From positions 1-42,414 of the IMG/VR virus record IMGVR_UViG_3300045988_068405: DNA of 42,414 nucleotides, one strand, 5' to 3'. The position numbers and the translations under genes were made by a program. The stretch comes from a virus. This document shows, in pieces, positions 1-42,414 of this stretch. A model generated the notes under the pieces. It saw only the letters and a list, made by a program, of their open reading frames with translations, was not told the DNA's origin and made no database searches. Every line of letters starts with the position of its first letter. Position 1 is the first letter of the stretch.

Positions 1-119
1 CGAGGGGCAGACAGAAAGGATAAAGGTACTCATTTGTGAATATCCCACATCAGAGAAAGGTGTAAAAGATGTGCGAATCCTTTACAGCCCTAACTATAAG
101 GGCGATGAATAAAAAAAGC
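1..119. repeat. Terminal direct repeat, copy 1 (identical to 42296-42414)
   Basis: Compared base by base: 1-119 equals 42296-42414 (119/119). Unique genome length is 42,295 bp. Confidence 0.95.
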
Positions 120-154
120 AAGGACTTTTTTGAGTCCCTGCTTTCTTTTTTTTA
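118..154. terminator. Bidirectional intrinsic terminator after repressor 1
   Basis: Stem 118-126/133-141 (9 bp, one A.C mismatch), loop tttttg. It is flanked by an A-run (111-117) and a T-run (142-154). It lies immediately 3' of the minus-strand gene ending at 152. Confidence 0.7.
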
Positions 155-547
155 CTTTTCTTTTTTGCTTATCGCAGCATTGAGCTTCCTGATCATGTCC
201 AACACGGCTTGCATTTGGGTTTCATCCAGCTGCAAAAGATACTTGTTAAGCTCTATCAGAAAGTTATAAGTCTCTGGATCAGTTTCTTCTTTGTGAAAAA
301 GCTGTGTTGTGATAGCAGCTATTTCAGCTTGCTTTGTCATAGGAGCTTTCATTTCTCCTTCGCCAGTGCGTAGCCAAGCCTCGTTGATTTGAAATTCTCG
401 ACATATAGCAGAAATGATAGCATTTGAAGGTTTCCGTGAATTAGATTCATAATTAGTGATTGTATTACCTCGTACACCCAATTTTTCTCCGAATTCATTT
501 TGTGTAAGCCCCAGTGACTTTCTTACCTCTTTGATTCTTTCATTCAT
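152..547 (-). CDS. CI-like repressor, XRE-family HTH (repressor 1)
   Basis: 131 aa. N-terminal HTH 'LGLTQNEFGEKLGVRGNTITNYESNSRKPS' followed by 'EAWLRTGEGEM'. RBS AAGGAGG upstream. Transcribed divergently from the early operon. Confidence 0.85.
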   Translation of the reverse strand: MNERIKEVRKSLGLTQNEFGEKLGVRGNTITNYESNSRKPSNAIISAICREFQINEAWLRTGEGEMKAPMTKQAEIAAITTQLFHKEETDPETYNFLIELNKYLLQLDETQMQAVLDMIRKLNAAISKKEK

Positions 548-621: not shown

Positions 622-650
622 TTGACATTAAACTCACAATGTGATATATT
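622..650 (+). promoter_or_regulatory. Rightward early promoter (PR-like)
   Basis: TTGACA (622-627), 17-nt spacer, TATATT (645-650), preceded by TGTGA (extended -10). Located 46 nt upstream of the first early gene. Confidence 0.75.
634..644. promoter_or_regulatory. Candidate operator palindrome TCACAaTGTGA in the PR spacer
   Basis: Perfect 5-1-5 palindrome at 634-644 between -35 and -10. A second AACTCACA copy lies at 588-595, inside the leftward promoter spacer. Confidence 0.45.
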
Positions 651-695
651 ATAGTCACAGAGCGAGGAAAGCTCAACAGAAAGGAAGGAAGCAAA

Positions 696-1688: not shown

Positions 1689-1890
1689 GTACGAGGTATG
1701 TTTTTACGTAGATTGGCAGTTGGTAGCAGGCTGCATTATTGAAACCTATGACAAAGATAGTGCAGAAAAGCTAGCAACTGCCAAATTGCAAGACGAAATC
1801 AAAGAAATAGAAGATGCGCTGAACGCAAAGGTTAACCGAACTTTTGTATCACAGTTACCAGATAATCAGCACAGAAAGGAAAGACAATGA
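1675..1890 (+). CDS. Hypothetical protein
   Basis: 71 aa ORF. AAGGAGG abuts the ATG at 1675, so the GTG at 1681 may be the true start. Stop overlaps the next start (ATGA). Confidence 0.55.
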   Translation: MWVHKYEVCFYVDWQLVAGCIIETYDKDSAEKLATAKLQDEIKEIEDALNAKVNRTFVSQLPDNQHRKERQ

Positions 1891-2321
1891 CAGACAAAGA
1901 GTTAAGATCAAAATTTGAGTGGATCATCAGAAACGAAGTATACCCAAACAGCGAGGCTATGCAAGATTATGTTATCAATTTGGACGACTATCTTATTGAG
2001 CTTTCGGGCGAGAGAATTACAAGCATTGAAAAACCAACGTGTTTAGGCGATGTGTACTACTTCGAGGAGTACATAGAAACCTTGAGAAAGTGCCTTAAAG
2101 GGGTATATAAGTATAGGGCATTTGTGGCTTACAAAGATACACCAGATAACTGTAAATTGGTTACAGTGGTGTACTACAGAGAAGGAAGTGAGCCAAAATG
2201 GATGCTCAAGCAACCGCAGAGGGTGTCCAAGCTCTGGAAGAGAGACATAAAGCGTATTATTGCAGGATATCAGGCAATGATCAAGCAGTATAAGAGAGCT
2301 TTAGGAGGGGCAGAGGAATGA
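1887..2321 (+). CDS. Hypothetical protein, paralog A of a tandem pair
   Basis: 144 aa. Collinear similarity to the next gene: 'MTDKELRSKFEWIIRNEVYP' against 'MTQKELRKKYMQIIKTEAYP', and the C-terminal 'IKRIIAGYQAMIKQYK' against 'IQRIIDGYKYLLMKYK'. Confidence 0.7.
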   Translation: MTDKELRSKFEWIIRNEVYPNSEAMQDYVINLDDYLIELSGERITSIEKPTCLGDVYYFEEYIETLRKCLKGVYKYRAFVAYKDTPDNCKLVTVVYYREGSEPKWMLKQPQRVSKLWKRDIKRIIAGYQAMIKQYKRALGGAEE

Positions 2322-2746
2322 CGCAGAAGGAGCTGAGAAAGAAGTACATGCAGATCATCAAGACCGAGGCATATCCTCACGATGCAAAAATGCAGAAGTA
2401 TTGCAAAGAAAGATGTGGCTACATTGTAGAGCTTACAGACGGTAAGTTTATTAGACTGTATAAACCAAGAAAGCATGTTCCGTATGATTTCGCTGAGATC
2501 ATTGACAAAATTACCAGATTAACGTTGTGCCTTGAAGGTTTCTTCGGGTGCAAGACATTTGTGGAGTATTCCGCATCATCAGACGATTGCGATCTGGTGC
2601 AAGAAGTTACATATTCTGGTGTAGAGTCAGAGTGGATGAAAGAAGAGGCAGCTAGAGGGCAGGACAGAAATAGCGAAGATATCCAGAGAATCATTGATGG
2701 CTATAAGTATCTACTGATGAAATATAAGGTTGGAGGTAAGAAATGA
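2318..2746 (+). CDS. Hypothetical protein, paralog B of a tandem pair
   Basis: 142 aa. ATGA overlap with paralog A. Same length and same motif order as paralog A. Confidence 0.7.
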   Translation: MTQKELRKKYMQIIKTEAYPHDAKMQKYCKERCGYIVELTDGKFIRLYKPRKHVPYDFAEIIDKITRLTLCLEGFFGCKTFVEYSASSDDCDLVQEVTYSGVESEWMKEEAARGQDRNSEDIQRIIDGYKYLLMKYKVGGKK

Positions 2747-3039
2747 AAGTAACAGATATTATCCATAAGATTTCCAATATAGTTTGTAGAATGCCTGACA
2801 CTCTTTTCCCGACTAGTGTAGCTACAGCTTGGAATGTTGGCGAGATCAATGCATTATGTTCTTTGCTATACGAATATGCAGGAGTTGGAACAGGAGCAAA
2901 TTATACTATTGATGAATCCCTTCATGTCTGCATAATTCGCGAGATCACAATAGGAAGCCACACAATCTATCATGATAAGGCACTTGATCAGGTGGAAATT
3001 GATGCAGCACTTGAAGAATATGAATACCTTGAAATTTAA
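2743..3039 (+). CDS. Hypothetical protein
   Basis: 98 aa ORF, translationally coupled (ATGA overlap) to the upstream gene. Confidence 0.6.
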   Translation: MKVTDIIHKISNIVCRMPDTLFPTSVATAWNVGEINALCSLLYEYAGVGTGANYTIDESLHVCIIREITIGSHTIYHDKALDQVEIDAALEEYEYLEI

Positions 3040-3049
3040 CTAAATTACA

Positions 3050-3102
3050 GCTCCGCACGGATTACCCTTCGGGTAATGCAGGTTCGACTCCTGCGCGGAG
3101 TG
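3050..3102 (+). ncRNA. tRNA-like element lacking D-arm and variable loop (non-canonical)
   Basis: Acceptor stem 3050-3056/3095-3101 (7 bp, one G.U). 4-nt linker. 5-bp stem plus 7-nt loop CCTTCGG at 3061-3077. T-arm 3078-3094 with loop TTCGACT (matches the conserved T-loop T54-T55-C56-R57-A58). Discriminator G. No encoded CCA. Confidence 0.45.
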
Positions 3103-3155
3103 ATCAGGTTTGCGCGAACCTTGTAACTATTGGAATGCACAAGAAAGGAGTATAC

Positions 3156-4759
3156 ATGTTAGAGTACATAACCGAAGAGGTTGGAAGAATTAGAACTGAA
3201 AAAATCAATTTTATACCGTATTTTTACGCTGCTGACATTTGCAGAATCCTCGGAAAAGGCACATGGACAGGTACATATGCGCAGAGATATGCAGGAAAAG
3301 AACATATCAAGCAGATTAAGAATGGCTTGAAGAAAGCAAATCTAGTTGACCTTGACGGAGTAATGAATTTGTGCAAGAAAGCACAGGCAAAGACTAGCAA
3401 CTTACTTATGGGGATAGCAAATAGAATCCACTACGATGTCACGTATTTAGAGGATTCGTCCAGCGGAACAATTTATCTTCCCCTTTTTAAGGATAAACAG
3501 CAGGACTATGAAAACGATGCAGGAGATTTTAAGGTTTTCTATCACCCGATTTTTGGAAAAATCAGAGCAACATTGGTTAACGAGAATATGTATTTCTACT
3601 CAACAGATATCTGCAGGGCATTAGGCTTTAAACGATACGGAAGCGTATATACTAACCGCTATGCAGGAGAAGAAAACTTGAAGCAGATTGTCAGCGAGTC
3701 AATGAGAGGCACACGCTGCATCAATGTTATAAGCATTGCAGGAGTACGCAATCTGTGCCAGCGTAGCAAGCTATCTCCAGATACTATATCAGATTTCTCA
3801 AACTGGCTGCATAACGCTACAAAGCAGGAAAAAGAGCCAGAAAAGCCACAGGCAGAGGAAAAACCAGTAGAAGAGAAGCCACTTGAAATTGAAGTCAATG
3901 AGCATTTGGATAATACAAGCATTCCGCTTGCCAAAGCTAATAGCTATACCGTCAAAGAACCTATTTTGATGGAAGAAGTACAGCAGGAACTAGAAGAGCA
4001 TGAAGAAATCAAGGAGGAAGAAACGATGGAATCAAACGCAATGAAGATTTTTAATAATCCAGAATTTGGAGATATCAGAACAGAGGTTATCAACGGTGAG
4101 CCGTGGTTTTGCCTGAGCGATGTATGTAAGGCATTGGAGCTTGAGCAGGTAAGTAGAGTAAAAACAAGACTTAATTTGAATGGGGTTACTACTAGTAAGG
4201 TCATCGACAGCATGGGTAGAAATCAGGAGCAACATTCGTCAACGAAGCCAACCTCTACAAGACCATCTTCCAGAGCCGCAAGGAAAGTGCAGAACGCTTT
4301 ACAGACTGGGTAACGTCCGAGGTACTTCCATCAATCCGTAAGACTGGCAGCTATCAGACCCCACCACTTACGACAGCAGAACAGATACAGCTAATTGCGA
4401 AGGGGTGTGTAGAGCTTGAGCAGCAGGTTGCCACCCTTGGGGCAGAGGTAACGGAACTGAAAACGGATATGCCGCTGTATGGATGTGAGATTGACGAGGT
4501 ACAGCAGCACGTAAAGCGCAAGGGTGTGCAGTGTTTAGGTGGCAAGGACAGCGAAGCATACGCAGATGGAAGCATCAGAAGTCAGGTGTACAAGGATATC
4601 TACAGCCAGTTAAAAAGAGAGTATGGCTGTGTAAGTACCTACAAGAGTATCAAGCGTAAGTATATTGCAGATGTACATGATTTTATTGACTGCTATCAGC
4701 TCCCGACAGTACTTGAGGAGCAGATCACGGCAGCTAACGCACAGCAGAGATTGTTTTAA
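3156..4759 (+). pseudogene. Antirepressor-type protein with three BRO-N-like repeats plus an ORF6C-like C-terminus, interrupted by a 1-nt frameshift near 4230
   Basis: Frame 3 (3156..4313) carries the BRO-N hallmarks 'FGDIRTEVINGEPWFCLSDVCKALEL...GRNQEQ'. The expected continuation 'TFVNEANLYKTIFQSRKESAERFTDWVTSEVLPSIRKTGSY' and the C-terminal domain (listed ORF 4469..4759) lie in frame 2, which opens at 4220. One extra A in 'gcaacatt' (4229-4236) would restore a single 534-aa ORF. RBS AAAGGAG precedes the ATG at 3156. Confidence 0.75.
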
Positions 4760-6535: not shown

Positions 6536-6785
6536 GCGGCAGAGAAAGAAGCAGTTCAAGAAGCTTCACAATATGAACCCGAAGCAGTACTTCCTTGAGA
6601 AAGCAATGCCAGAAATCATAAAAATTGTAGTAGATGTAGCTACTGCTATGGTTAGAGTATTGTGCAAGCATAACGGTACTCTTTGGGAGATTGCCAGAGT
6701 ACGGATGGCAAATGCTAACCTGCTGAAAAATCTCACAGAGCAGCGAAAGCAAGGGAAGAGAAAGAAAGGAAAATGGAGCAGATGA
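6528..6785 (+). CDS. Hypothetical basic protein
   Basis: 85 aa. Lys/Arg-rich at both termini. Overlaps its neighbours by a few nt (operon coupling). Confidence 0.5.
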   Translation: MNKRQRKKQFKKLHNMNPKQYFLEKAMPEIIKIVVDVATAMVRVLCKHNGTLWEIARVRMANANLLKNLTEQRKQGKRKKGKWSR

Positions 6786-7519
6786 AATTTAGAGCATTGA
6801 CAGCGGATGATGTGGAAGTGCGCATCGCAACCGTAAAGAAAAGTGGTGTATCACTCCTGCTGTATAAAGATGCAAGAGTAGATCAGAATATCTTAGATGA
6901 TACCGTAGGAGCTGATAACTGGCAGAAGAAATACGAGATCATCGGAGGCAACCTCTTTTGCAGCGTAGGCATTCGAGTGCTGCACGAAGATTCACAGGAG
7001 AGAGAGTGGATTTGGAAGCAGGATGTCGGTGTGGAGAGCTACACCGAGAAGGAAAAGGGACAAGCTTCGGACGCTTTCAAGAGAGCGTGTTTCTGTTGGA
7101 GCATTGGAAGAGAGCTGTATACAGCGCCATTTATTTGGATTCCTGCCGATAAGTGTAAGATTGAGCAAGTCGCAGGCGATTACCAGAGGTATACCTGCTA
7201 TGAGCGATTCCGCGTAAAGAGTATGCAGGTTGAGGGCGGCAAGATAACCGCCCTGGCAATCACTAACGAGCGTGGGATCGAAGTATTTCAAATGGGAATG
7301 AAGAGGGTAGAACAGAAGGTAGAGCAGAAGGAGCTTAAACCTATGCTTGTATCTGCCGATGAAATTAAGATCATAAGGGCAGAGTTAGCTAGAACAGGAT
7401 TGCCTGAGGACACCATTTGCACAGCGTATCATATCGCAAAATTAGAAGAAATGACACTGGGGCAGTTCCAAAACTGTAAGAAGAGATTAATTGCGACTAA
7501 GACTAAGGAGGAAAAATAA
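6773..7519 (+). CDS. Rad52/Sak-like single-strand annealing protein
   Basis: 248 aa. 'EKEKGQASDAFKRACFCWSIGRELY' matches the Rad52-type SSAP signature (K..aSDa.KRa...wGIGreLY). Adjacent to ssb. Confidence 0.7.
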   Translation: MEQMKFRALTADDVEVRIATVKKSGVSLLLYKDARVDQNILDDTVGADNWQKKYEIIGGNLFCSVGIRVLHEDSQEREWIWKQDVGVESYTEKEKGQASDAFKRACFCWSIGRELYTAPFIWIPADKCKIEQVAGDYQRYTCYERFRVKSMQVEGGKITALAITNERGIEVFQMGMKRVEQKVEQKELKPMLVSADEIKIIRAELARTGLPEDTICTAYHIAKLEEMTLGQFQNCKKRLIATKTKEEK

Positions 7520-10283: not shown

Positions 10284-10845
10284 TGCAGCGGTTGAGCTGT
10301 GGTATAAGATGCTGCAAGATATCCCGATGCAGAAGGTGCAGAACGCAGCTGCACGATACATCATGGAAGAACACTTCCCACCTACAATTGCAGATATCCG
10401 CAAGCGGTGTGCAGAGGATAATGCAGCGCAACTCCCAGACTGGGAGCAGGGTTGGGCTGAGTGGCTGACAGCGATGCACAAGTATGGATATATGCGCGAG
10501 GACGAGGCTATTGAGAGCTTGAGCCCGATTACAAAAGAGGTTGTAAAGTGTCTGGGTTGGAAAAATCTCTGCCATAGCCAGAACTTAGAGGGTGATAGAA
10601 TCGCCTTTAGAGAGGTACATGGTAGATATGTACAACAAGCAAGAGAGAATTTACAGCTACCAGAGCAGCTAAAAGTGAACCATTATCAGATACCAACGTA
10701 TGCTGAGGAGCGATTGCAGATTGAGGCAATCCAGAACGGCATGAGGTATATCGGAACGGATCAGAGAACAGAAGGGTATGCAGAAGTGGCTGCAAGCCGT
10801 ATCCGAGAAAGGATTGAAGGAGGTGTAAACAGTGGAAGATATTAG
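10156..10845 (+). CDS. Helicase loader, SPP1 G39P-like
   Basis: About 229 aa. 'ILKTAYPTKGFLDSDAAVELWYKMLQDIPMQKVQNAAARYIMEEHFPPTIADIRK' fits the G39P loader family pattern. Start is ambiguous (GTG 10153, ATG 10156, 10165 or 10168). Overlaps the organizer gene by about 128 nt. Confidence 0.65.
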   Translation: MTDMMESSLGQSKTGLTPEKEAWLAITTILKTAYPTKGFLDSDAAVELWYKMLQDIPMQKVQNAAARYIMEEHFPPTIADIRKRCAEDNAAQLPDWEQGWAEWLTAMHKYGYMREDEAIESLSPITKEVVKCLGWKNLCHSQNLEGDRIAFREVHGRYVQQARENLQLPEQLKVNHYQIPTYAEERLQIEAIQNGMRYIGTDQRTEGYAEVAASRIRERIEGGVNSGRY

Positions 10846-15464: not shown

Positions 15465-16716
15465 CAAAAAGCAGTTACAGGTTTTGGCATTTCCAAACAG
15501 CAGCTACGATGCGCTCATCTGTGATGGATCAGTGCGAAGCGGAAAGACTTCTGTAATGTCGGTGGCTTTCGTTCTCTGGGCGATGCGAGGATTCAACAAA
15601 CAAAATTTCGGTATCTGTTCCAAGACTGATAAAACGTGTCTGAGAAATGTCATTCGACCGCTTATGGCAATGGCTTACATGCAGACACACTTTTCCATGC
15701 AGCTGCATATAGCATCGGGTGATCTGGTTATCAGTGACGGAAAGCATACCAACACTTTTTACATTTATGGCGGCAAAGACGAGGCATCATATCAAAAGAT
15801 ACAGGGTGTTACTTTAGCAGGTGTATTTCTGGATGAGGTGGCATTAATGCCGAGATCATTTGTCGAACAGGCATTAGCACGTTGTTCAGTGAGTGGGCGA
15901 AAGTATTGGTTTAATTGCAACCCAGCAGGCCAAATGCACTGGTTTTATCAAAATTGGATATTAAAAGCCAAAGAGCATAACGCACTGCGATTGCATTTCT
16001 TGATGGACGACAACCCAGGTCTGTCTGAGGAGATCAAGAAAGGCTATGAGTCAACGTTTTCTGGCATTTTCTACGATCTCTACATTCTTGGCTTGTGGGT
16101 AACTGCCGAAGGTCTTGTATATGATATGTTTTCGGACGCTAATATTCTGGACGAAGAACCAGAAACCATAGGAGACTACTTTGTTTCATCCGACTTCGGC
16201 ATTCAGAATGCAACAACTTTTCTTTTGTGGCGCAGAATCGCAGGCACAGACGATTGGTTATGCCTCAGCGAGTATTATTACAGTGGACGAGAAGAACGCA
16301 AACAGAAGACTGTTGCGGAGCTTGTAGACGGACTCGTGCAGATGCTTGTAGAAAGGAACGCAGACCCAAAGCAAGTTATCATCGACCCTTCCGCAGCTGC
16401 ATTGAAAGTCGAAATAAGAAAGCGTGGCTTACATGCAAAGGATGCCGACAACGATGTGATAAACGGTATCGCTGATGTATCAAACCTTTTAGAGCGCAAG
16501 AGGCTTAAATTTATGCGCAGGTGCAAAAATACAATACAGGAGTTTGGTGTGTACGCTTGGAACGCAAAAGCCTTAGAGCGTGGAGAAGAAAAACCAGAGA
16601 AGGAAACCGACCACTGCATGGACGCTGTTAGATACTTCGCAAGAACAAAGAGAATTGCAGTTAAAACGCAAGCTGCATTAGATACCAAAATGCGGCAGGG
16701 AAATTATATGCTATAA
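15439..16716 (+). CDS. terL: Terminase large subunit
   Basis: Walker A 'CDGSVRSGKT', Walker B 'GVFLDEVA', and nuclease-domain 'DHCMDAVRY'. Start is one of the ATGs at 15439, 15442 or 15445. Confidence 0.9.
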   Translation: MMMQVAKFSKKQLQVLAFPNSSYDALICDGSVRSGKTSVMSVAFVLWAMRGFNKQNFGICSKTDKTCLRNVIRPLMAMAYMQTHFSMQLHIASGDLVISDGKHTNTFYIYGGKDEASYQKIQGVTLAGVFLDEVALMPRSFVEQALARCSVSGRKYWFNCNPAGQMHWFYQNWILKAKEHNALRLHFLMDDNPGLSEEIKKGYESTFSGIFYDLYILGLWVTAEGLVYDMFSDANILDEEPETIGDYFVSSDFGIQNATTFLLWRRIAGTDDWLCLSEYYYSGREERKQKTVAELVDGLVQMLVERNADPKQVIIDPSAAALKVEIRKRGLHAKDADNDVINGIADVSNLLERKRLKFMRRCKNTIQEFGVYAWNAKALERGEEKPEKETDHCMDAVRYFARTKRIAVKTQAALDTKMRQGNYML

Positions 16717-16726
16717 GGAGATTAGA

Positions 16727-18112
16727 TTGAAAACATATCAAGATTTAGTAAACGTTCCAGATGAGGGCAAGGGCGATTTCTGCGTAGAAGCTGTGGCAGA
16801 ATTTAGAGGGACGAAAGAGTATGCAGAAGCCAAAGACGGTGAGCGGTACTACAACAAGCACAACACAACAATAGAGCAATTCCAGAAGTTTTTATATACG
16901 GTAAGTGGTAAGCGAGTAAAAGATATTTTCTCAGCAAATTACAAGCTCAAAACACTCTTTTTCCGTAGATTGTGCCAACAGCAAGTGCAGTATGTACTAG
17001 GAAACGGCTTGAAGTTGGAGAAGCCAGAGAACAAAGAAAAGCTTGGGAAAGATTTTGATTTTAAGTTACAGCTTGCAGCGAAAAGAGCTATGGCAGGTGG
17101 TAGAGCGTTTGGCTTTTGGAACTTAGACCATCTGGAAGTATTCGGGTACGCTGATACACCATCGCAGCCAGGATTCTGCCCTCTGTACGATGAAGAGACT
17201 TCACAGTTGATGGCAGGAATTAGATATTGGTATCGCCAAATTGGTTTAGACGTTGTCTTCCACTGTACGCTGTATGAGCCAGACGGTTATACCGATTACA
17301 TTCAGACCAACAACGACCCAGTGAGGACGAAGGATGGAAAACATGGCTATATCAAGACAATCAAACGCACGGCTGTAGGAGTAGATGAGGAAATTGAAAG
17401 CAACTACTCAGGGTTGCCGATCATCCCACTATATGCCAACGACTCACATGAGAGCGAATTGGTAGGCATCAAAGAGAGCATAGATTGCTACGATTATATC
17501 AAGAGTGGGCTTGCAAATGATATTGATGATACCGCAGGATTCTACTGGGTACTAAAAAACGAGGGAGGTATGGACGATCCAGACCTTGCAAAATTCATCC
17601 AGCGCATGAAGTCCGTAAGGGCGTCAGCAGTTGAGGATGGAACAGAAGTAGAAGCACATACACTAGAGGTTCCAACAGAAGCAAGAAATACCATGTTGGA
17701 AATCCTCAGACGTGATATATACGAGGACTTCCAAACTCTGGACGTATCCACGCTCTCAGCGGCTGCAAAGACTACGCAAGAGATTCAAGCGGCTTATCAG
17801 TCACAGGATAACAAGTGTGCGGATTTTGAGTATTACATATTGGATTTTGTTCAAAGCATTCTTGAACTTGCAGGAATCAGTGACAACCCAACACTTACTT
17901 GGAACAGAGTTGTAAACCAAAACGAGCAAACAAACATGGTATTATCAGCCGCAAACTACCTTTCCGATGAATGCGTGATTCAGCATCTGCCATTCCTCAC
18001 ACCAGAAGAGGCAATGGCAGAAATTGAAAAACGGCAGGATGAAGAAATTAAAAGATTTTCAGCAGACGATGAAGAGGAAGAGGAAGAACAGGAAGGGACT
18101 GATACTAAGTGA
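16727..18112 (+). CDS. Portal protein (SPP1 gp6-like)
   Basis: 461 aa with a TTG start. Follows terL and precedes the MuF-like gene. Acidic C-terminal tail. Confidence 0.8.
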   Translation: MKTYQDLVNVPDEGKGDFCVEAVAEFRGTKEYAEAKDGERYYNKHNTTIEQFQKFLYTVSGKRVKDIFSANYKLKTLFFRRLCQQQVQYVLGNGLKLEKPENKEKLGKDFDFKLQLAAKRAMAGGRAFGFWNLDHLEVFGYADTPSQPGFCPLYDEETSQLMAGIRYWYRQIGLDVVFHCTLYEPDGYTDYIQTNNDPVRTKDGKHGYIKTIKRTAVGVDEEIESNYSGLPIIPLYANDSHESELVGIKESIDCYDYIKSGLANDIDDTAGFYWVLKNEGGMDDPDLAKFIQRMKSVRASAVEDGTEVEAHTLEVPTEARNTMLEILRRDIYEDFQTLDVSTLSAAAKTTQEIQAAYQSQDNKCADFEYYILDFVQSILELAGISDNPTLTWNRVVNQNEQTNMVLSAANYLSDECVIQHLPFLTPEEAMAEIEKRQDEEIKRFSADDEEEEEEQEGTDTK

Positions 18113-19035
18113 GTAGTTACTCCGACAAATACACAGAAAAAAGGCTGAGAGAGGTAGAAAAGCGGCTACAACAGGTATATCAGGAAGCACACAAAGAGCT
18201 GAAAGAAAAGGCTACGGAGTACTTTAAGACGTTCCAATCACGCTACCTGAAAGAGTATAACGCATACATGGAAGGGAAATATACAGATGCAGAGTTCTTC
18301 CAGTGGGTCAGCAATCAGGTAGCACGAGGGGCAAGGTGGGAAGCTCTGAGAGATCAGATGGCAAGGCGACTTACTGATGCAAACAAACTGGCGGCTGACT
18401 ATATCAATAACGTTACCCCTGAGGTGTTCCGCGAAAACTACAACTACTCAGCCTATGAGATTGAGAAGGGAAGCGGCATAAGCTTTGATCTTCTGGATGA
18501 GGACACAATCAGGAGGCTGTCTGAGGGTGAGATTGAGCTGTTACCACCTGCAAGAGTAGATATCCCAAAGGATGAGCGATGGAATCGCCAAAAGGTGCAG
18601 AATGCAGTGCTGCAAGGTATCTTACAAGGGGATGCGGTGGGCGATTTAGCAAAACGGCTGGAAAACGTAACCAACATGAACCGCAGCGCAGCTATCAGAA
18701 CTGCAAGGACGATGATAACAGGCGCACAGAATGGTGGGCGGCAAGAAAGCTATAACCGTGCCTCTGCCATAGGGATTGAAATACAGAAAGAATGGATGTC
18801 GGCAAACGATAACCGAGTGAGAAATTCACACAGGCAATTAAACGGAGTAAGGGTGAGGTATGATGAACCATTCCCAAACGGCTGTATGTACCCTGCTGAC
18901 CCTAAAGGCAAGCCGTGCGAGGTATACAACTGCCGCTGTACTATGGTAGCAATCACAATACACGCAGATCAGACGAGAAGAAACGATCACAGCGTAAAAA
19001 GTTATAAAGAATGGAGACAGAGACATGGGAAGTAG
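18109..19035 (+). CDS. Head morphogenesis protein (Mu F / SPP1 gp7 family)
   Basis: 308 aa; 'NRVRNSHRQLNG...DEPF...EVYNCRCT' is the family signature. Confidence 0.8.
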   Translation: MSSYSDKYTEKRLREVEKRLQQVYQEAHKELKEKATEYFKTFQSRYLKEYNAYMEGKYTDAEFFQWVSNQVARGARWEALRDQMARRLTDANKLAADYINNVTPEVFRENYNYSAYEIEKGSGISFDLLDEDTIRRLSEGEIELLPPARVDIPKDERWNRQKVQNAVLQGILQGDAVGDLAKRLENVTNMNRSAAIRTARTMITGAQNGGRQESYNRASAIGIEIQKEWMSANDNRVRNSHRQLNGVRVRYDEPFPNGCMYPADPKGKPCEVYNCRCTMVAITIHADQTRRNDHSVKSYKEWRQRHGK

Positions 19036-19426
19036 CATAAGAATTGAAATTGATAATACTGATGCTGTTATCCGTGCCAGTCGCGATCAGATCAAAAAAG
19101 CACTAGAGGAGTGTGGACTGACAACGGAACGATATGCCAAGGAGAAATGTCCAGTAGACACTGGAAACCTACGCAATAGCATCACGCACCAGATGGACGG
19201 AGATAACAAGGTACTGATAGGTTCTAATGTAGAATATGCACCGTATGTTGAGTTAGGCACTGGAAAGTATGCTGACGGGGGTAGAAAAACCTCGTGGGTA
19301 TACGAGGATAGCAAGGGCAACTGGCACATGACGAATGGACAGAAAGCGCGACCATATCTAAAACCTGCGCTTGCAAATCATACAGATGAGTATGCGAAGA
19401 TCATACGAGAGAATTTGGAGAGCTGA
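19025..19426 (+). CDS. HK97 gp10-family protein
   Basis: 133 aa; 'KCPVDTGNLRNSITHQ...IGSNVEYAPYVELGT'. Confidence 0.7.
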   Translation: MGSSIRIEIDNTDAVIRASRDQIKKALEECGLTTERYAKEKCPVDTGNLRNSITHQMDGDNKVLIGSNVEYAPYVELGTGKYADGGRKTSWVYEDSKGNWHMTNGQKARPYLKPALANHTDEYAKIIRENLES

Positions 19427-39852: not shown

Positions 39853-39901
39853 TTTCCTTTACCTTACTACCTTTGGTAGCTCCTTTCTTTGTTATGACTA
39901 T

Positions 39902-39930
39902 AATATAGCACCGATTCGGTACTTTGTAAA
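39902..39930 (-). promoter_or_regulatory. Promoter of the minus-strand accessory operon
   Basis: Minus strand reads TTTACA (39925-39930), a 17-nt spacer, TGc and TATATT (39902-39907). Confidence 0.65.
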
Positions 39931-40040: not shown

Positions 40041-41411
40041 TTATATAAAAAACACCTTAGACACCTTCTTGCCATCAATCTCAATGCGCCTGATGGTACG
40101 ATGCCAGAAATCACGCTTTCCATCCTTGGATAATTGCCAGTACATTTCTTCCCAATCGTCAGGCAGCTGCTTGATTGGGCTGAGTGGGACTCTCTGGCTT
40201 TCAAGCTCTGCCATATCTGCCTTGAGCTGTGACGTCTTTTCTACATACTCAGCACGCCCCATATCTCCATCAAGGTATACGTCTTTCAGCCGTTGGAGCT
40301 TGCCCTTGATGCGGCTGATTTCCTTTTCTGCATCCTTAGCCTTTTCTTGGCTTTGTGCAATACTTGCCTCGTAGTCCGTGATCAACTCGGACATATGCTC
40401 GATTAAGTAATCTTCCAGTTTGTGTTCCATCACAAAGGCAGGCTTCTCACAAATGTCCTTTCTCCTAACCTTTGTGCAGCATTGGTAGTACCCTCTCTCA
40501 ATTGTCTCCCCATTTGCCCTGATGTGCTTGGATAGCTTCGAACACATCCGCGCTCCACAACTGGCGCAGAAGATCACCCCTGTAAAGATATATACTCTAT
40601 CATCTTTTGGCGTGCGTGGATAGTGGACTCTAGCTTGCTCTATGATCTTGTGTTGCTCTGGTGTGATGTATGCAGGCACATCAACCCCGTAGTACGTGCC
40701 GTAGTACGGCTCTTTGTCTAGGATGAAATGAGCGGTTTTGCGTGACATGCGCAGACCTAACTTCCGTGCAGCGTCCATGGCTGCTACTGGGCTGTAAGTG
40801 TCAAGGTAGGTATTAAAAAACGCTTGCATAGCATCCTTAGTGGCAGGATCATAGTCAATGGTACTGGAGGATGTCCTTATGTACCCTAGCGGCATCCTGC
40901 CTGCTATGATGTGCCCATGCTCCCTTTTGTACTCCAGTACAGCTTTGATACGTTCTGACGTGCGGTCGGACTCTGCCTGAGCCACCGACAGCATGATATT
41001 TACTTTAAAAACTCCTGCCGAAGTCTCCGTTTCGTAATCCTCCCAAATCGCCCTCCATGGCACTTTTGCACCATCTAACACCTGCTGTACTGCATAGTAG
41101 TCGGCAACAGAGCGAAACCATCTGTCTAACTTTGTAAAAAGAATAATATCAATTTTATGCTTTTTGCAATCTTCTAGCAATTGCAATAATGCAGGACGTG
41201 ATTTGTATTTCTTTCTCGCACTGATTCCTGCATCGTTGTAGATACCTGCGATTGAAAAACCGCGTTCCTGGCAATAGTTCTTTAATGCGTCTAACTGGTT
41301 ATCCACTGATAATCCGTGTTCCTTCTGTTCTGCGGTTGATACGCGTACGTATATAGCCGCCCTTTTCTGCCCTTCCTTATCTAACCTTTTCTGTTCTTCC
41401 TTTTCTGCCAT
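40041..41411 (-). CDS. int: Large serine recombinase (integrase)
   Basis: 456 aa from Met 'MAEKEEQ' (RBS AAGGAAGG). Resolvase catalytic domain 'AAIYVRVSTAEQKEHGLSVDNQ', recombinase domain, zinc ribbon 'CASCGARM...YYQC', and a coiled-coil C-terminus. Confidence 0.9.
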   Translation of the reverse strand: MAEKEEQKRLDKEGQKRAAIYVRVSTAEQKEHGLSVDNQLDALKNYCQERGFSIAGIYNDAGISARKKYKSRPALLQLLEDCKKHKIDIILFTKLDRWFRSVADYYAVQQVLDGAKVPWRAIWEDYETETSAGVFKVNIMLSVAQAESDRTSERIKAVLEYKREHGHIIAGRMPLGYIRTSSSTIDYDPATKDAMQAFFNTYLDTYSPVAAMDAARKLGLRMSRKTAHFILDKEPYYGTYYGVDVPAYITPEQHKIIEQARVHYPRTPKDDRVYIFTGVIFCASCGARMCSKLSKHIRANGETIERGYYQCCTKVRRKDICEKPAFVMEHKLEDYLIEHMSELITDYEASIAQSQEKAKDAEKEISRIKGKLQRLKDVYLDGDMGRAEYVEKTSQLKADMAELESQRVPLSPIKQLPDDWEEMYWQLSKDGKRDFWHRTIRRIEIDGKKVSKVFFI

Positions 41412-41471
41412 TTCTGTCCTTCCTTGTGTTACGTTTACACCATTAGTCACATCAAAAGTGTTGAAAAAAGT

Positions 41472-41477
41472 ATTATA
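41472..41477 (-). promoter_or_regulatory. Possible -10 (TATAAT) for the integrase gene
   Basis: Minus strand reads cgaTATAATac, 60 nt upstream of the start. No good -35 was found. Confidence 0.3.
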
Positions 41478-41532
41478 TCGTTTTCCCCTTTGTGCTAACA
41501 TAGAAACATCTTTTTTTAAGGAGGTGCATTAT

Positions 41533-42272: not shown

Positions 42273-42302
42273 CCCCTCGTGCCGAAAGGTAAACACGAGG
42301 GG
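42273..42302. repeat. Perfect 9-bp inverted repeat CCCCTCGTG-N12-CACGAGGGG
   Basis: Read directly from the sequence. The terminal repeat begins inside its right arm (42296). Confidence 0.85.
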
Positions 42303-42414
42303 CAGACAGAAAGGATAAAGGTACTCATTTGTGAATATCCCACATCAGAGAAAGGTGTAAAAGATGTGCGAATCCTTTACAGCCCTAACTATAAGGGCGA
42401 TGAATAAAAAAAGC
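42296..42414. repeat. Terminal direct repeat, copy 2 (identical to 1-119)
   Basis: 119/119 identity with the window start. Confidence 0.95.
42334..42361 (-). promoter_or_regulatory. Candidate minus-strand promoter (also present as 39-66)
   Basis: Minus strand reads TTTACA (42356-42361), a 16-nt spacer, TGg and GATATT (42334-42339). Confidence 0.35.

What the first reader, a model, noticed from the sequence alone, without database searches (positions are those of the whole stretch)
3050..3102. 53-nt tRNA-like element without D-arm or variable loop, co-transcribed between early genes
The fold is a 7-bp acceptor stem (3050-3056/3095-3101), a 4-nt linker and a canonical-size 5-bp stem with 7-nt loop (3061-3077, loop CCTTCGG, centre TTC). 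A 5-bp T-stem follows directly, with loop TTCGACT reproducing the conserved tRNA T-loop residues, then a discriminator G. It cannot be a standard tRNA: there is no D-arm, the variable region is 0 nt, C replaces U33, and no CCA is encoded. The acceptor plus T-arm minihelix is, however, what RNase P, RNase Z and the CCA-adding enzyme recognise. Three readings are possible. It could be a processing signal that cuts the early polycistron just before the antirepressor gene. It could be a mimic or decoy for tRNA-directed host defences or enzymes. It could be a decayed phage tRNA. A further small hairpin (3106-3121) follows.
Basis: partly seen in the sequence, partly recalled or inferred. Interest (0 to 1): 0.65.

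Follow-up and report, generated by a model that had tools for sequence, protein, structure and literature searches.

The report
Truncated tRNA-like element in phage operon
A 53-base stretch between two early genes of a temperate phage really does fold like the top half of a tRNA, most likely a tRNA that lost two arms and may now act as an RNA cutting signal, but relatives give no evolutionary proof that the fold is needed.

Summary
Window 3050-3102 (+) folds into a 7-bp acceptor-like stem, a middle hairpin and a textbook T-arm (GCAGG-TTCGACT-CCTGC), followed by discriminator G and no CCA. The fold has z = -3.8, and a tRNA-top-half descriptor hits once in the window and never in 300 shuffles. 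ARAGORN and Rfam do not call it a tRNA.

The middle hairpin is not an anticodon arm. Its loop triplet varies freely among close relatives (TTC, TTT, TTA, GAA, GAT). It matches the long variable arm of class II tRNAs better, so a single deletion of the D and anticodon arms explains the architecture.

The element always follows a tiny orphan gene family (ORF98/103), not the antirepressor; in other phages the next gene is SSB. In about 42-kb phages like the window (clade A) the fold is intact. In larger phages (clade B) the homologous sequence has lost the G53:C61 pair, a hairpin base and acceptor pairs, and folds no better than shuffles. There are no compensatory changes in 17 variants.

Best reading: a tRNA-derived "t-element" that host RNase P and RNase Z would excise, cutting the early mRNA. 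Selection for this is unproven. The main rival is a hitchhiking relic. A tRNA-Ser-like decoy is a long shot.

The parts
3050..3056 (+). Acceptor-stem 5' strand (GCTCCGC).
   Evidence: Pairs with 3095-3101 in the minimum-free-energy fold. C4 and C5 change to U in relatives, which keeps G.U pairs.
3057..3060 (+). 4-nt linker ACGG, the proposed scar of a deletion that removed the D and anticodon arms.
   Evidence: Unpaired in the fold. Grafting a D arm plus an anticodon arm at this single point gives an ARAGORN class II tRNA.
3061..3077 (+). Middle hairpin ATTACCC-TTC-GGGTAAT, best read as a long variable arm rather than an anticodon arm.
   Evidence: 7-bp stem with a 3-nt loop. The stem is invariant in clade A while the loop is TTC, TTT, TTA, GAA or GAT. 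The covariance model matches the variable arm plus T-arm of a phage tRNA-Leu over model positions 12-45, E about 0.014.
3078..3094 (+). T-arm GCAGG-TTCGACT-CCTGC with a consensus T-loop.
   Evidence: BLAST finds the T-arms of annotated phage tRNAs. Matches the GGTTCRANYCC motif.
3095..3102 (+). Acceptor-stem 3' strand GCGGAGT plus discriminator G; no CCA is encoded.
   Evidence: G66 becomes A (a C7.A66 mismatch) in 12 of 17 variants. Homology to L055 stops within 1-2 nt after the discriminator.
3106..3121 (+). Downstream hairpin AGGTTT-GCGC-GAACCT, specific to clade A. It would be the 5'-proximal hairpin of the downstream mRNA if RNase Z cuts after 3102.
   Evidence: Present in the folds. An A-to-G variant keeps the pair as U.G. 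Replaced by a different hairpin in L055 and clade B.
3037..3049 (+). ORF98 stop codon plus a 10-nt spacer (TAA CTAAATTACA) that travels with the element.
   Evidence: The block GAAATTTAA-TTAAATTACA is shared by clades A and B. Within clade A the spacer is polymorphic, pi = 0.15.
2743..3039 (+). ORF98, an orphan gene that always lies immediately upstream of the element.
   Evidence: Only 12 clusters among 5.8 billion proteins. The element sits downstream in every contig inspected. No Pfam, PHROG or PDB match. The AlphaFold2 model has pLDDT 83.5 and no Foldseek hit.
2318..2746 (+). ORF142, which always precedes ORF98/103. The window also holds a paralog at 1887-2321.
   Evidence: Gene order is conserved in both clades. 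The family is small, with 26 representatives.
3135..4313 (+). Downstream gene in this window: the Bro-N part of a frameshifted antirepressor. The likely start is ATG 3156, behind the ribosome-binding site AAAGGAG.
   Evidence: Pfam Bro-N and PHROG anti-repressor matches. The frameshift is shown.

Best explanation
The element is a tRNA-derived minigene. It keeps the acceptor stem, T-arm and long variable arm of a class II-type tRNA, and its D arm and anticodon arm were removed by one internal deletion. It lies inside the early polycistronic transcript of the phage, right after ORF98.

Shown here: the fold, its non-random tRNA character, its fixed position after ORF98/103, its integrity in the roughly 42-kb temperate phages (clade A), and its decay in the larger clade B phages.

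Inferred: once transcribed, the acceptor/T-arm stack is recognised by the host tRNA-maturation enzymes.
- RNase P would cut between 3049 and 3050.
- RNase Z would cut after the discriminator at 3102. The lack of an encoded CCA suits an RNase Z substrate.
- The CCA-adding enzyme would then tail the released 53-nt RNA.

The net effect would be that of a plant-mitochondrial t-element. The ORF98 message is separated from the downstream message, which here encodes the antirepressor. That message would then begin 3 nt before a conserved hairpin (3106-3121) that could protect its new 5' end.

It is not established whether selection acts on the cut, on the released RNA, or on neither.
For: - Fold and statistics.
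- Canonical T-arm and the GGTTCRANYCC motif.
- Sense orientation inside an operon, with no terminator-like site and only two weak (9 of 12) promoter-like matches upstream.
- Stems are quiet and loops vary in clade A. Diversity (pi) is 0.014 at paired positions and 0.081 at unpaired positions. By my count from the and one search lists, only 2 of about 8 substitution events fall in the 38 paired positions.
- Mosaic flanks with an unchanged element. Two upstream gene types and at least three downstream contexts occur, and homology to L055 ends at the discriminator.
- Class II origin.
- The strand bias of G.U-compatible changes favours the + strand RNA.
- Established knowledge: acceptor/T-arm minihelices are substrates of RNase P, RNase Z and the CCA-adding enzyme. 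t-elements direct such cuts in plant mitochondria (PMC1920247).
Against: - No compensatory change occurs in any of the 19 pairs. Twelve of 17 variants carry a C7.A66 mismatch.
- In clade B the homologous sequence has G53.G61, a 1-nt deletion in the hairpin and extra acceptor mismatches, and it folds no better than shuffles (z from -0.2 to -1.6). Yet it keeps its place after ORF103.
- Between L001 and clade B the flanking genes are about 93% identical while the element is only about 73% identical. So the element is not the best-conserved part there.
- In clade A, synonymous sites of ORF98 are as invariant (pi = 0.011) as the stems. Recent common ancestry can therefore explain stem conservation.
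- The stem-versus-loop contrast rests largely on one hypervariable 3-nt loop, which may be a mutational hot spot.
- No expression or cleavage data exist.
Confidence: 0.42

Rival explanations
1. Non-functional relic. A phage tRNA gene, probably class II, lost its D and anticodon arms. It now hitchhikes with the ORF142-ORF98/103 cassette. It looks intact in clade A only because that lineage is young, and it is visibly decaying in clade B. Any RNase P/Z cleavage would be incidental.
For: - No covariation, and a frequent C7.A66 mismatch.
- Structural decay in clade B: the T-loop closing pair is lost, the hairpin has an indel, and z is about 0.
- The element diverges faster than the neighbouring coding genes between L001 and clade B.
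- ORF98 synonymous diversity is as low as stem diversity.
- The family has a very narrow distribution.
Against: - Eighteen of 19 pairs are intact across 11 clade A variants, while the loop has changed at least four times.
- The element stays unchanged while both flanks are swapped.
- The helix junctions are exact, with 0 nt on both sides of the T-stem, and the fold is very stable. A random deletion would not be expected to produce this.
- No parent tRNA was found. No GTDB representative genome shares the 23-nt T-arm plus acceptor 3' strand, and IMG/VR holds no full-length version.
Confidence: 0.3
2. tRNA mimic or decoy. After excision and CCA addition, the mini-RNA presents an acceptor end with G73, a T-arm and a long variable arm. 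These are the features read by anticodon-independent tRNA-Ser-directed proteins such as SerRS and MenT3/AbiEii-type nucleotidyltransferase toxins. The mini-RNA would titrate a host defence or enzyme during early infection.
For: - The retained parts are acceptor, G73, variable-arm-like hairpin and T-arm.
- MenT3 selects tRNA-Ser through its long variable loop (PMC11162799).
- The element sits in an early accessory region next to orphan genes. Clade B phages carry anti-defence-like genes nearby, with a faint Apyc1-like Pfam hit.
Against: - There is no direct evidence.
- The acceptor stem (G1.U72, C2-G71, U3-A70) does not resemble bacterial tRNA-Ser acceptor stems (my own knowledge, not tested here).
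- Without a D arm, the orientation of the variable arm that SerRS reads would differ.
- Clade B has lost the fold.
- The neighbouring proteins gave no functional clue.
Confidence: 0.1
3. DNA-level element. The conserved block is a recombination linker or hot spot, or an old tRNA-type attachment sequence, at a module boundary. Its value would lie in mediating exchange of flanking gene modules, not in any RNA.
For: - Mosaic breakpoints flank the element. Upstream types ORF98 and ORF103 switch at the stop codon, and downstream Ant and SSB modules switch right after the discriminator.
- Two haplotypes plus recombinants occur within clade A.
- The loop flip between TTC and GAA shows DNA-level hairpin dynamics.
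Against: - The phage integrase is a large serine recombinase about 4 kb away across the circular junction of the genome (40041-41501). From general knowledge, such integrases do not usually use tRNA sites.
- The window holds no second partial copy of the element.
- No host tRNA has this 3' end in 185,579 species genomes.
- A recombination linker does not need a consensus T-loop abutting a 7-bp acceptor stem.
Confidence: 0.1
4. Cis-acting antisense or regulatory RNA of the immI/C4 type. It would be processed by RNase P and would pair with the ribosome-binding site of the downstream antirepressor.
For: - In this window the element sits directly upstream of an antirepressor gene.
- The T-arm 3' strand ACUCCU is complementary to the AGGAGU ribosome-binding site at about 3147-3152 (by eye).
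Against: - Rfam gives no C4 hit, or any other hit, at E up to 10.
- The element also occurs upstream of SSB with a different ribosome-binding-site context.
- CUCC in a T-arm is generic to tRNAs.
- The complementary bases are locked inside a stable stem.
Confidence: 0.05

Closest known systems
Plant mitochondrial t-elements (Forner et al. 2007, PMC1920247)
   Same: Both are non-decoding tRNA-like modules embedded in mRNA precursors. Both were recognised by the GGTTCRANYCC T-arm motif with an acceptor-like stem. t-elements direct RNase P and RNase Z cuts that define mRNA ends, and the excised element can carry non-encoded C or CCA.
   Different: t-elements occur in organelles, and their termini were mapped experimentally. 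This element is in a phage of a (presumably Gram-positive) bacterium and has no transcript data. It also has a specific acceptor / variable-arm / T-arm three-way junction.
Class II tRNAs (Ser, Leu, Tyr) of bacteria and phages
   Same: A hairpin lies directly 5' of a consensus T-arm, as does the long variable arm of class II tRNAs. The acceptor stem has 7 bp. The discriminator is G73, as in tRNA-Ser. The covariance model cross-hits the variable arm plus T-arm of a phage tRNA-Leu.
   Different: The element has no D arm, no anticodon arm and no anticodon. ARAGORN and Rfam do not call it. Its acceptor-stem sequence is unlike known tRNA-Ser, tRNA-Leu or tRNA-Tyr.
mascRNA (MALAT1) and gammaherpesvirus MHV68 tRNA-like TMER units
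   Same: These are tRNA-like modules inside longer transcripts. RNase P and/or RNase Z cleavage of the module releases both the small RNA and the neighbouring RNA. In MHV68 the neighbour is a downstream hairpin, which echoes the 3106-3121 hairpin here.
   Different: They are eukaryotic systems with full cloverleaf-like folds and experimentally proven processing.
P1/P7 C4 antisense RNA of the immI operon
   Same: It is a small structured RNA co-transcribed upstream of an antirepressor gene and matured by RNase P (my own knowledge).
   Different: There is no Rfam match and no demonstrated complementarity to a target. The element is also not specifically linked to ant.
tRNA gene fragments at phage attP sites
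   Same: Both contain a tRNA T-arm plus acceptor 3' strand, with a homology break at the tRNA 3' end.
   Different: This element also has the matching acceptor 5' strand. It is far from the (serine) integrase, and no identical host tRNA exists in the databases searched.

Membership tests
Canonical (decoding) tRNA | Detected as a cloverleaf with a D arm by tRNA finders or the Rfam tRNA model. | tested here: not met
   ARAGORN finds 0 genes in bacterial and mitochondrial modes and returns only nonsense calls at an 80% threshold. Rfam gives no hit at E up to 10.
Canonical (decoding) tRNA | Anticodon loop with U33 and a conserved anticodon. | tested here: not met
   The loop triplet is TTC, TTT, TTA, GAA or GAT in near-identical relatives. 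The hairpin folds as 7 bp with a 3-nt loop.
Canonical (decoding) tRNA | Consensus T-arm abutting a 7-bp acceptor stem with a discriminator base. | tested here: met
   (one hit in the window, none in 300 shuffles).
t-element (tRNA-like mRNA processing signal) | GGTTCRANYCC motif within a tRNA-like fold embedded in an mRNA precursor. | tested here: met
   GGTTCGACTCC at 3081-3091. The element is on the sense strand between ORF98 and the next gene. The clade B copies (GGTTCGAYTGC) fail the motif.
t-element (tRNA-like mRNA processing signal) | Transcript termini coincide with the ends of the element; cleavage by RNase P and RNase Z. | not testable with these tools
   No transcriptome or enzymology data are available for this uncultured phage.
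Structured RNA under selection for its fold | Compensatory base-pair changes in homologues. | tested here: not met
   None of the 19 pairs changes on both sides. Three pairs show only G.U-compatible changes and four show disruptive changes. The clade B folds are not better than shuffles.
Class II tRNA derivative (long variable arm) | A stem-loop immediately 5' of the T-stem that is compatible with a class II cloverleaf. | tested here: met
   A single-block graft gives an ARAGORN class II tRNA with the hairpin as the variable arm. The covariance model hits the variable arm plus T-arm of phage Sham tRNA-Leu. BLAST hits reach into the variable arms of a phage tRNA-Tyr and of a class II tRNA that its record annotates as tRNA-Glu(gag) and ARAGORN calls tRNA-Leu(gag).
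tRNA-Ser mimic | G73 discriminator plus a long variable arm. | tested here: met
   G at 3102 and a 6-7-bp hairpin. The identity rules come from PMC9976931.
tRNA-Ser mimic | tRNA-Ser-type acceptor-stem determinants and D-arm-dependent orientation of the variable arm; serylation. | not tested
   The acceptor stem (G1.U72, C2-G71, U3-A70) differs from the bacterial tRNA-Ser stems I know. There is no D arm. Charging cannot be tested here.
P1/P7 C4 antisense RNA | Match to the Rfam C4 model and target complementarity in the ant leader. | tested here: not met
   No Rfam hit. The element also precedes SSB.
tmRNA tRNA-like domain | tmRNA detection and a G3.U70 alanine identity pair. | tested here: not met
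   ARAGORN tmRNA mode finds nothing. The 3:70 pair is U-A.
attP tRNA fragment | Identity to a host tRNA 3' end, adjacency to the integrase, and a second copy at a junction. | tested here: not met
   No hit in 185,579 species genomes. The serine integrase lies at 40041-41501. The window holds no second copy.

The most novel reading that the evidence does not exclude
The phage makes a minimal, anticodon-less class II tRNA (acceptor stem with G73, long variable arm, T-arm). It would be excised by RNase P and RNase Z and given a CCA tail. It would then act as a tRNA-Ser-like decoy or substrate for anticodon-independent tRNA-binding proteins, for example by soaking up MenT/AbiEii-type nucleotidyltransferase abortive-infection toxins, or by being serylated for a non-ribosomal purpose.
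Probability: 0.1. Interest if true: 0.8.

Novelty: new variant of a known kind. Interest (0 to 1): 0.42.

Why it matters
If the element is cleaved as predicted, it would be a bacterial-virus counterpart of tRNA punctuation and t-elements. A phage would be borrowing the host's tRNA-maturation enzymes to cut an early operon and set the stability of the downstream message.

If the released RNA itself is the product, it would be a natural minimal tRNA that keeps only the parts read by anticodon-independent enzymes. That bears on the growing list of tRNA-targeting phage defences and counter-defences.

As it stands, the finding is a well-documented but narrowly distributed tRNA-derived element with no evolutionary proof of function. 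It is also a useful caution: a perfect-looking tRNA-like fold can lack covariation and can decay in a sister lineage.

Tried and rejected
- **Standard tRNA or tmRNA.** ARAGORN in several modes and Rfam at E up to 10 found nothing.
- **Wider relatives by DNA pattern.** I ran exact, N-relaxed and purine/pyrimidine-degenerate patterns on IMG/VR and on metagenomes. Only close relatives turned up.
- **Cellular source tRNA or prophage host.** Two scans of the GTDB species genomes each gave 0 hits.
- **Full-length ancestor in IMG/VR.** The only hit was an unrelated tRNA 3' fragment at a contig end.
- **GenBank phages.** Only generic T-arm matches appeared.
- **Clues from neighbouring proteins.** Pfam, PHROGs, PDB sequence search, an AlphaFold2 model of ORF98 with Foldseek, and a 1.8-billion-protein search for ORF142 gave no function.
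- **attP idea.** Rejected: serine integrase, no repeat copy, no host match.
- **Other copies.** The covariance model found none in 205 kb of related sequence.
- **Outer helix 3045-3049 / 3122-3126.** The variants keep pairing only through transitions that could not have broken it, and one relative (L048) breaks it, so this is uninformative.
- **Ribosomal frameshift or readthrough signal at the ORF98 stop.** Considered by eye. There is no in-frame slippery site and the alternative frame stops at once.
- **Literature.** Searches found no described phage element of this type.

Full report
**1. The observation**

- GCTCCGC / GCGGAGT form a 7-bp acceptor-like stem, with G1.U72.
- ACGG is a linker.
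- ATTACCC-TTC-GGGTAAT is a hairpin.
- GCAGG-TTCGACT-CCTGC is a T-arm with the consensus T-loop.
- G is the discriminator, and ATC follows instead of CCA.
- A second hairpin lies at 3106-3121.

RNAfold returns this three-way junction as the minimum-free-energy and centroid structure: -26.6 kcal/mol, 82% of the ensemble, z = -3.78, and 0 of 200 shuffles fold as well.

The middle hairpin is 7 bp with a 3-nt loop, not 5 bp with a 7-nt loop.

A descriptor for a "tRNA top half" is a T-arm with GTTCRANNC, a 5-bp T-stem and an abutting 7-bp acceptor stem. It hits only this site in the window and nothing in 300 dinucleotide-preserving shuffles. I wrote the descriptor after seeing the element, so it leans towards it.

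ARAGORN does not call the element in bacterial, mitochondrial or tmRNA modes. Rfam shows nothing at the site up to E = 10.

**2. Context**

The window is a complete circular temperate siphovirus genome of about 42.3 kb, shown by a 119-nt terminal overlap. Its features are:
- a CI-like repressor at 152-547 (-)
- divergent promoters near 600-680
- an early operon on the + strand
- a large serine integrase at 40041-41501
- Sipho_Gp157, a Rad52-like protein, SSB, a replisome organiser, terminase and an SPP1-type portal

The element lies 10 nt after the stop codon of ORF98 (2743-3039). It lies 53 nt before the likely start (3156) of a Bro-N antirepressor gene. The consensus scan found no terminator-like site near the element, and only two weak (9 of 12) promoter-like matches within ORF98, at 2909-2936 and 2944-2973. 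The phage encodes nothing related to tRNA.

**3. Relatives**

DNA pattern scans of IMG/VR and of metagenomes found about 30 contigs with the element. I used exact, N-relaxed and purine/pyrimidine-degenerate patterns. All are close relatives, which I call clade A.

Within clade A the flanks are mosaic:
- There are two upstream gene types, ORF98 and a 103-aa homologue that is 29-31% identical.
- The downstream Ant alleles range from 48 to 91% identity, and one contig has a different gene start.
- The element itself is nearly unchanged throughout.

ORF98/103 is a tiny orphan family, with 12 clusters among 5.8 billion proteins. Following those proteins to their contigs revealed two further contexts:
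- L055/L056 carry a clade-A-like element followed by a different hairpin and SSB. Homology to the window stops within 1-2 nt of the discriminator.
- Clade B comprises 50-92-kb phages (L058-L070) with ORF143, ORF103, a diverged element and then SSB.

The element is therefore linked to ORF98/103, not to the antirepressor.

**4. Is the fold under selection?**

Seventeen distinct variants were aligned and the 19 pairs counted.
- No pair changes on both sides.
- Three pairs show only G.U-compatible single changes.
- Four pairs show disruptive changes: C7.A66 in 12 of 17 variants, 5:68 in 3, G53:C61 in 5, and 50:64 in 1.
- Clade B also has a 1-nt deletion in the hairpin.

Clade B sequences fold no better than shuffles (z from -0.2 to -1.6), and their T-arm no longer fits the consensus.

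Between L001 (clade A backbone, ORF103 type) and clade B, the genes ORF143 and ORF103 are about 93% identical. The element is only about 73% identical.

Within the ORF98-type subset of clade A, diversity (pi) breaks down as follows:

| Region | pi |
|---|---|
| Paired positions of the element | 0.014 |
| Unpaired positions of the element | 0.081 |
| 10-nt spacer | 0.15 |
| ORF98 third codon positions | 0.011 |

Stems are quieter than neighbouring non-coding bases. They are not quieter than nearby synonymous sites.

The G.U-compatible changes favour the + strand. The contrast between stem and loop rests mostly on one hypervariable triplet. The TTC and GAA forms of that triplet are reverse complements, that is, a loop flip inside a perfect inverted repeat.

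In summary, the element is conserved, it shows no covariation, and it has decayed in a sister clade.

**5. What the middle hairpin is**

The loop triplet (TTC, TTT, TTA, GAA, GAT) rules out an anticodon.

BLAST of the element against GenBank phages hits real tRNAs, and several matches extend from the T-arm back into the hairpin. These are class II tRNAs in which a long variable arm capped by TTCG sits directly 5' of an almost identical T-arm. Examples are Mycobacterium phage Rey tRNA-Tyr and Streptomyces phage Sham tRNA-Leu. The Sham record annotates this gene as tRNA-Glu(gag); ARAGORN calls it tRNA-Leu(gag).

The covariance model built from the element matches the Sham tRNA over model positions 12-45, which is the variable arm plus T-arm.

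I then ran a graft test.
- Inserting one block (D arm plus anticodon arm) into the ACGG linker makes ARAGORN call a class II tRNA, with the hairpin as its variable arm.
- Under the anticodon-arm reading, adding a D arm alone gives nothing. A variable loop must be added as well.

A single deletion from a class II-type tRNA is therefore the most economical origin.

No source tRNA was found. No representative genome of 185,579 species contains the 23-nt T-arm plus acceptor 3' strand. IMG/VR has no full-length version.

**6. Mechanism**

What is shown:
- a stable tRNA top-half fold on the sense strand of an early operon
- intact in clade A
- always placed after ORF98/103

What is inferred from established enzymology:
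- Acceptor/T-arm stacks are sufficient substrates for RNase P, RNase Z and the CCA-adding enzyme.
- RNase Z acts on precursors that lack an encoded CCA.
- The transcript should therefore be cut at 3049/3050 and after 3102, releasing a 53-nt RNA that would receive CCA.
- The downstream message would then begin 3 nt before the conserved 3106-3121 hairpin.

This is how plant mitochondrial t-elements work. They were identified with the same GGTTCRANYCC motif (PMC1920247).

I put this reading at about 0.42. The cut would probably happen even if the element were a relic, so "it is processed" is likelier than "it is selected for processing".

**7. Rivals**

- **Hitchhiking relic (0.30).** Supported by the lack of covariation, the decay in clade B, and stem diversity no lower than synonymous diversity.
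- **tRNA-Ser-like decoy or substrate (0.10).** The retained parts (acceptor, G73, long variable arm, T-arm) are what SerRS and MenT3-type toxins read (PMC9976931, PMC11162799). The acceptor sequence is unlike tRNA-Ser, the D arm is missing, and nothing direct supports this reading.
- **DNA-level recombination linker or old att site (0.10).** Mosaic breakpoints flank the element. However, the integrase is a distant serine recombinase, there is no second copy and there is no host match.
- **C4-like antisense regulator of ant (0.05).** There is no Rfam match and the element is not linked to ant.

**8. Novelty and score**

tRNA-like processing signals and truncated tRNA genes are known kinds. I found no description of an acceptor / variable-arm / T-arm mini-element inside a phage early operon. 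I class it as a new variant of a known kind.

The family is narrow and lacks evolutionary proof of function, so I score interest as moderate (0.42). The decoy reading would be far more interesting but is unlikely on present evidence.

Noticed in passing
window 4190-4270 (frameshift near 4226); ORFs 3135-4313 and 4469-4759: The antirepressor gene is split by a 1-nt deletion (GGAAG to GGAG) relative to L057, which has an intact 519-aa Bro-N + ORF6C protein. L033 also has an intact 403-aa version. This is either a real pseudogene or an assembly error.
   Followed up: partly
window 1-119 and 42296-42414: The two 119-nt ends are identical. This is a circular-assembly overlap, so the window is a complete genome of about 42,295 bp.
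   Followed up: no
window 3068-3070 and the same loop in L009, L046 and others: The loop variants TTC and GAA are reverse complements. This is a loop flip within a perfect 7-bp inverted repeat, and it points to hairpin-mediated inversion or template switching at the DNA level. The loop is the most variable spot in the region.
   Followed up: partly
L055 3822-3845; L058 about 10376-10400; L064, L065 and L067 equivalents: The hairpin that replaces 3106-3121 upstream of SSB (TTTCCA-TTT-TGGAAA) shows all four states at one pair: C-G, U.G, C.A and U-A. This is a true compensatory series. A second small hairpin nearby switches between ACGC..GCGT and ATGC..GCAT. These hairpins, unlike the tRNA-like element in the same phages, look to be under selection for structure.
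   Followed up: partly
window 1887-2321, 2318-2746 and 2743-3039: Two paralogous genes of about 143 aa, followed by ORF98, form a cassette found in two unrelated phage backbones. Both protein families are tiny (26 representatives and 12 clusters) and have no Pfam, PHROG or PDB match. The ORF98 AlphaFold2 model is confident (pLDDT 83.5) but has no Foldseek neighbour.
   Followed up: partly
L058 (85.8-kb contig) 2213-3244, 6608-7336 and 16669-19341: Clade B phages carry a reverse transcriptase (RVT_1), a protein with faint Apyc1/Lactamase_B_2 Pfam hits, and a DNA methylase interrupted by a Hint (intein) domain. L059 has a PAPS-reductase-family gene next to SSB.
   Followed up: no
window 641-657 and 39895-39911: A 17-nt inverted repeat, 94% complementary (GTGATATATTATAGTCA / TGACTATAATATAGCAC). 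One arm overlaps the early promoter region and the other lies next to the second HTH/lysogeny region. These may be shared operator sites.
   Followed up: no
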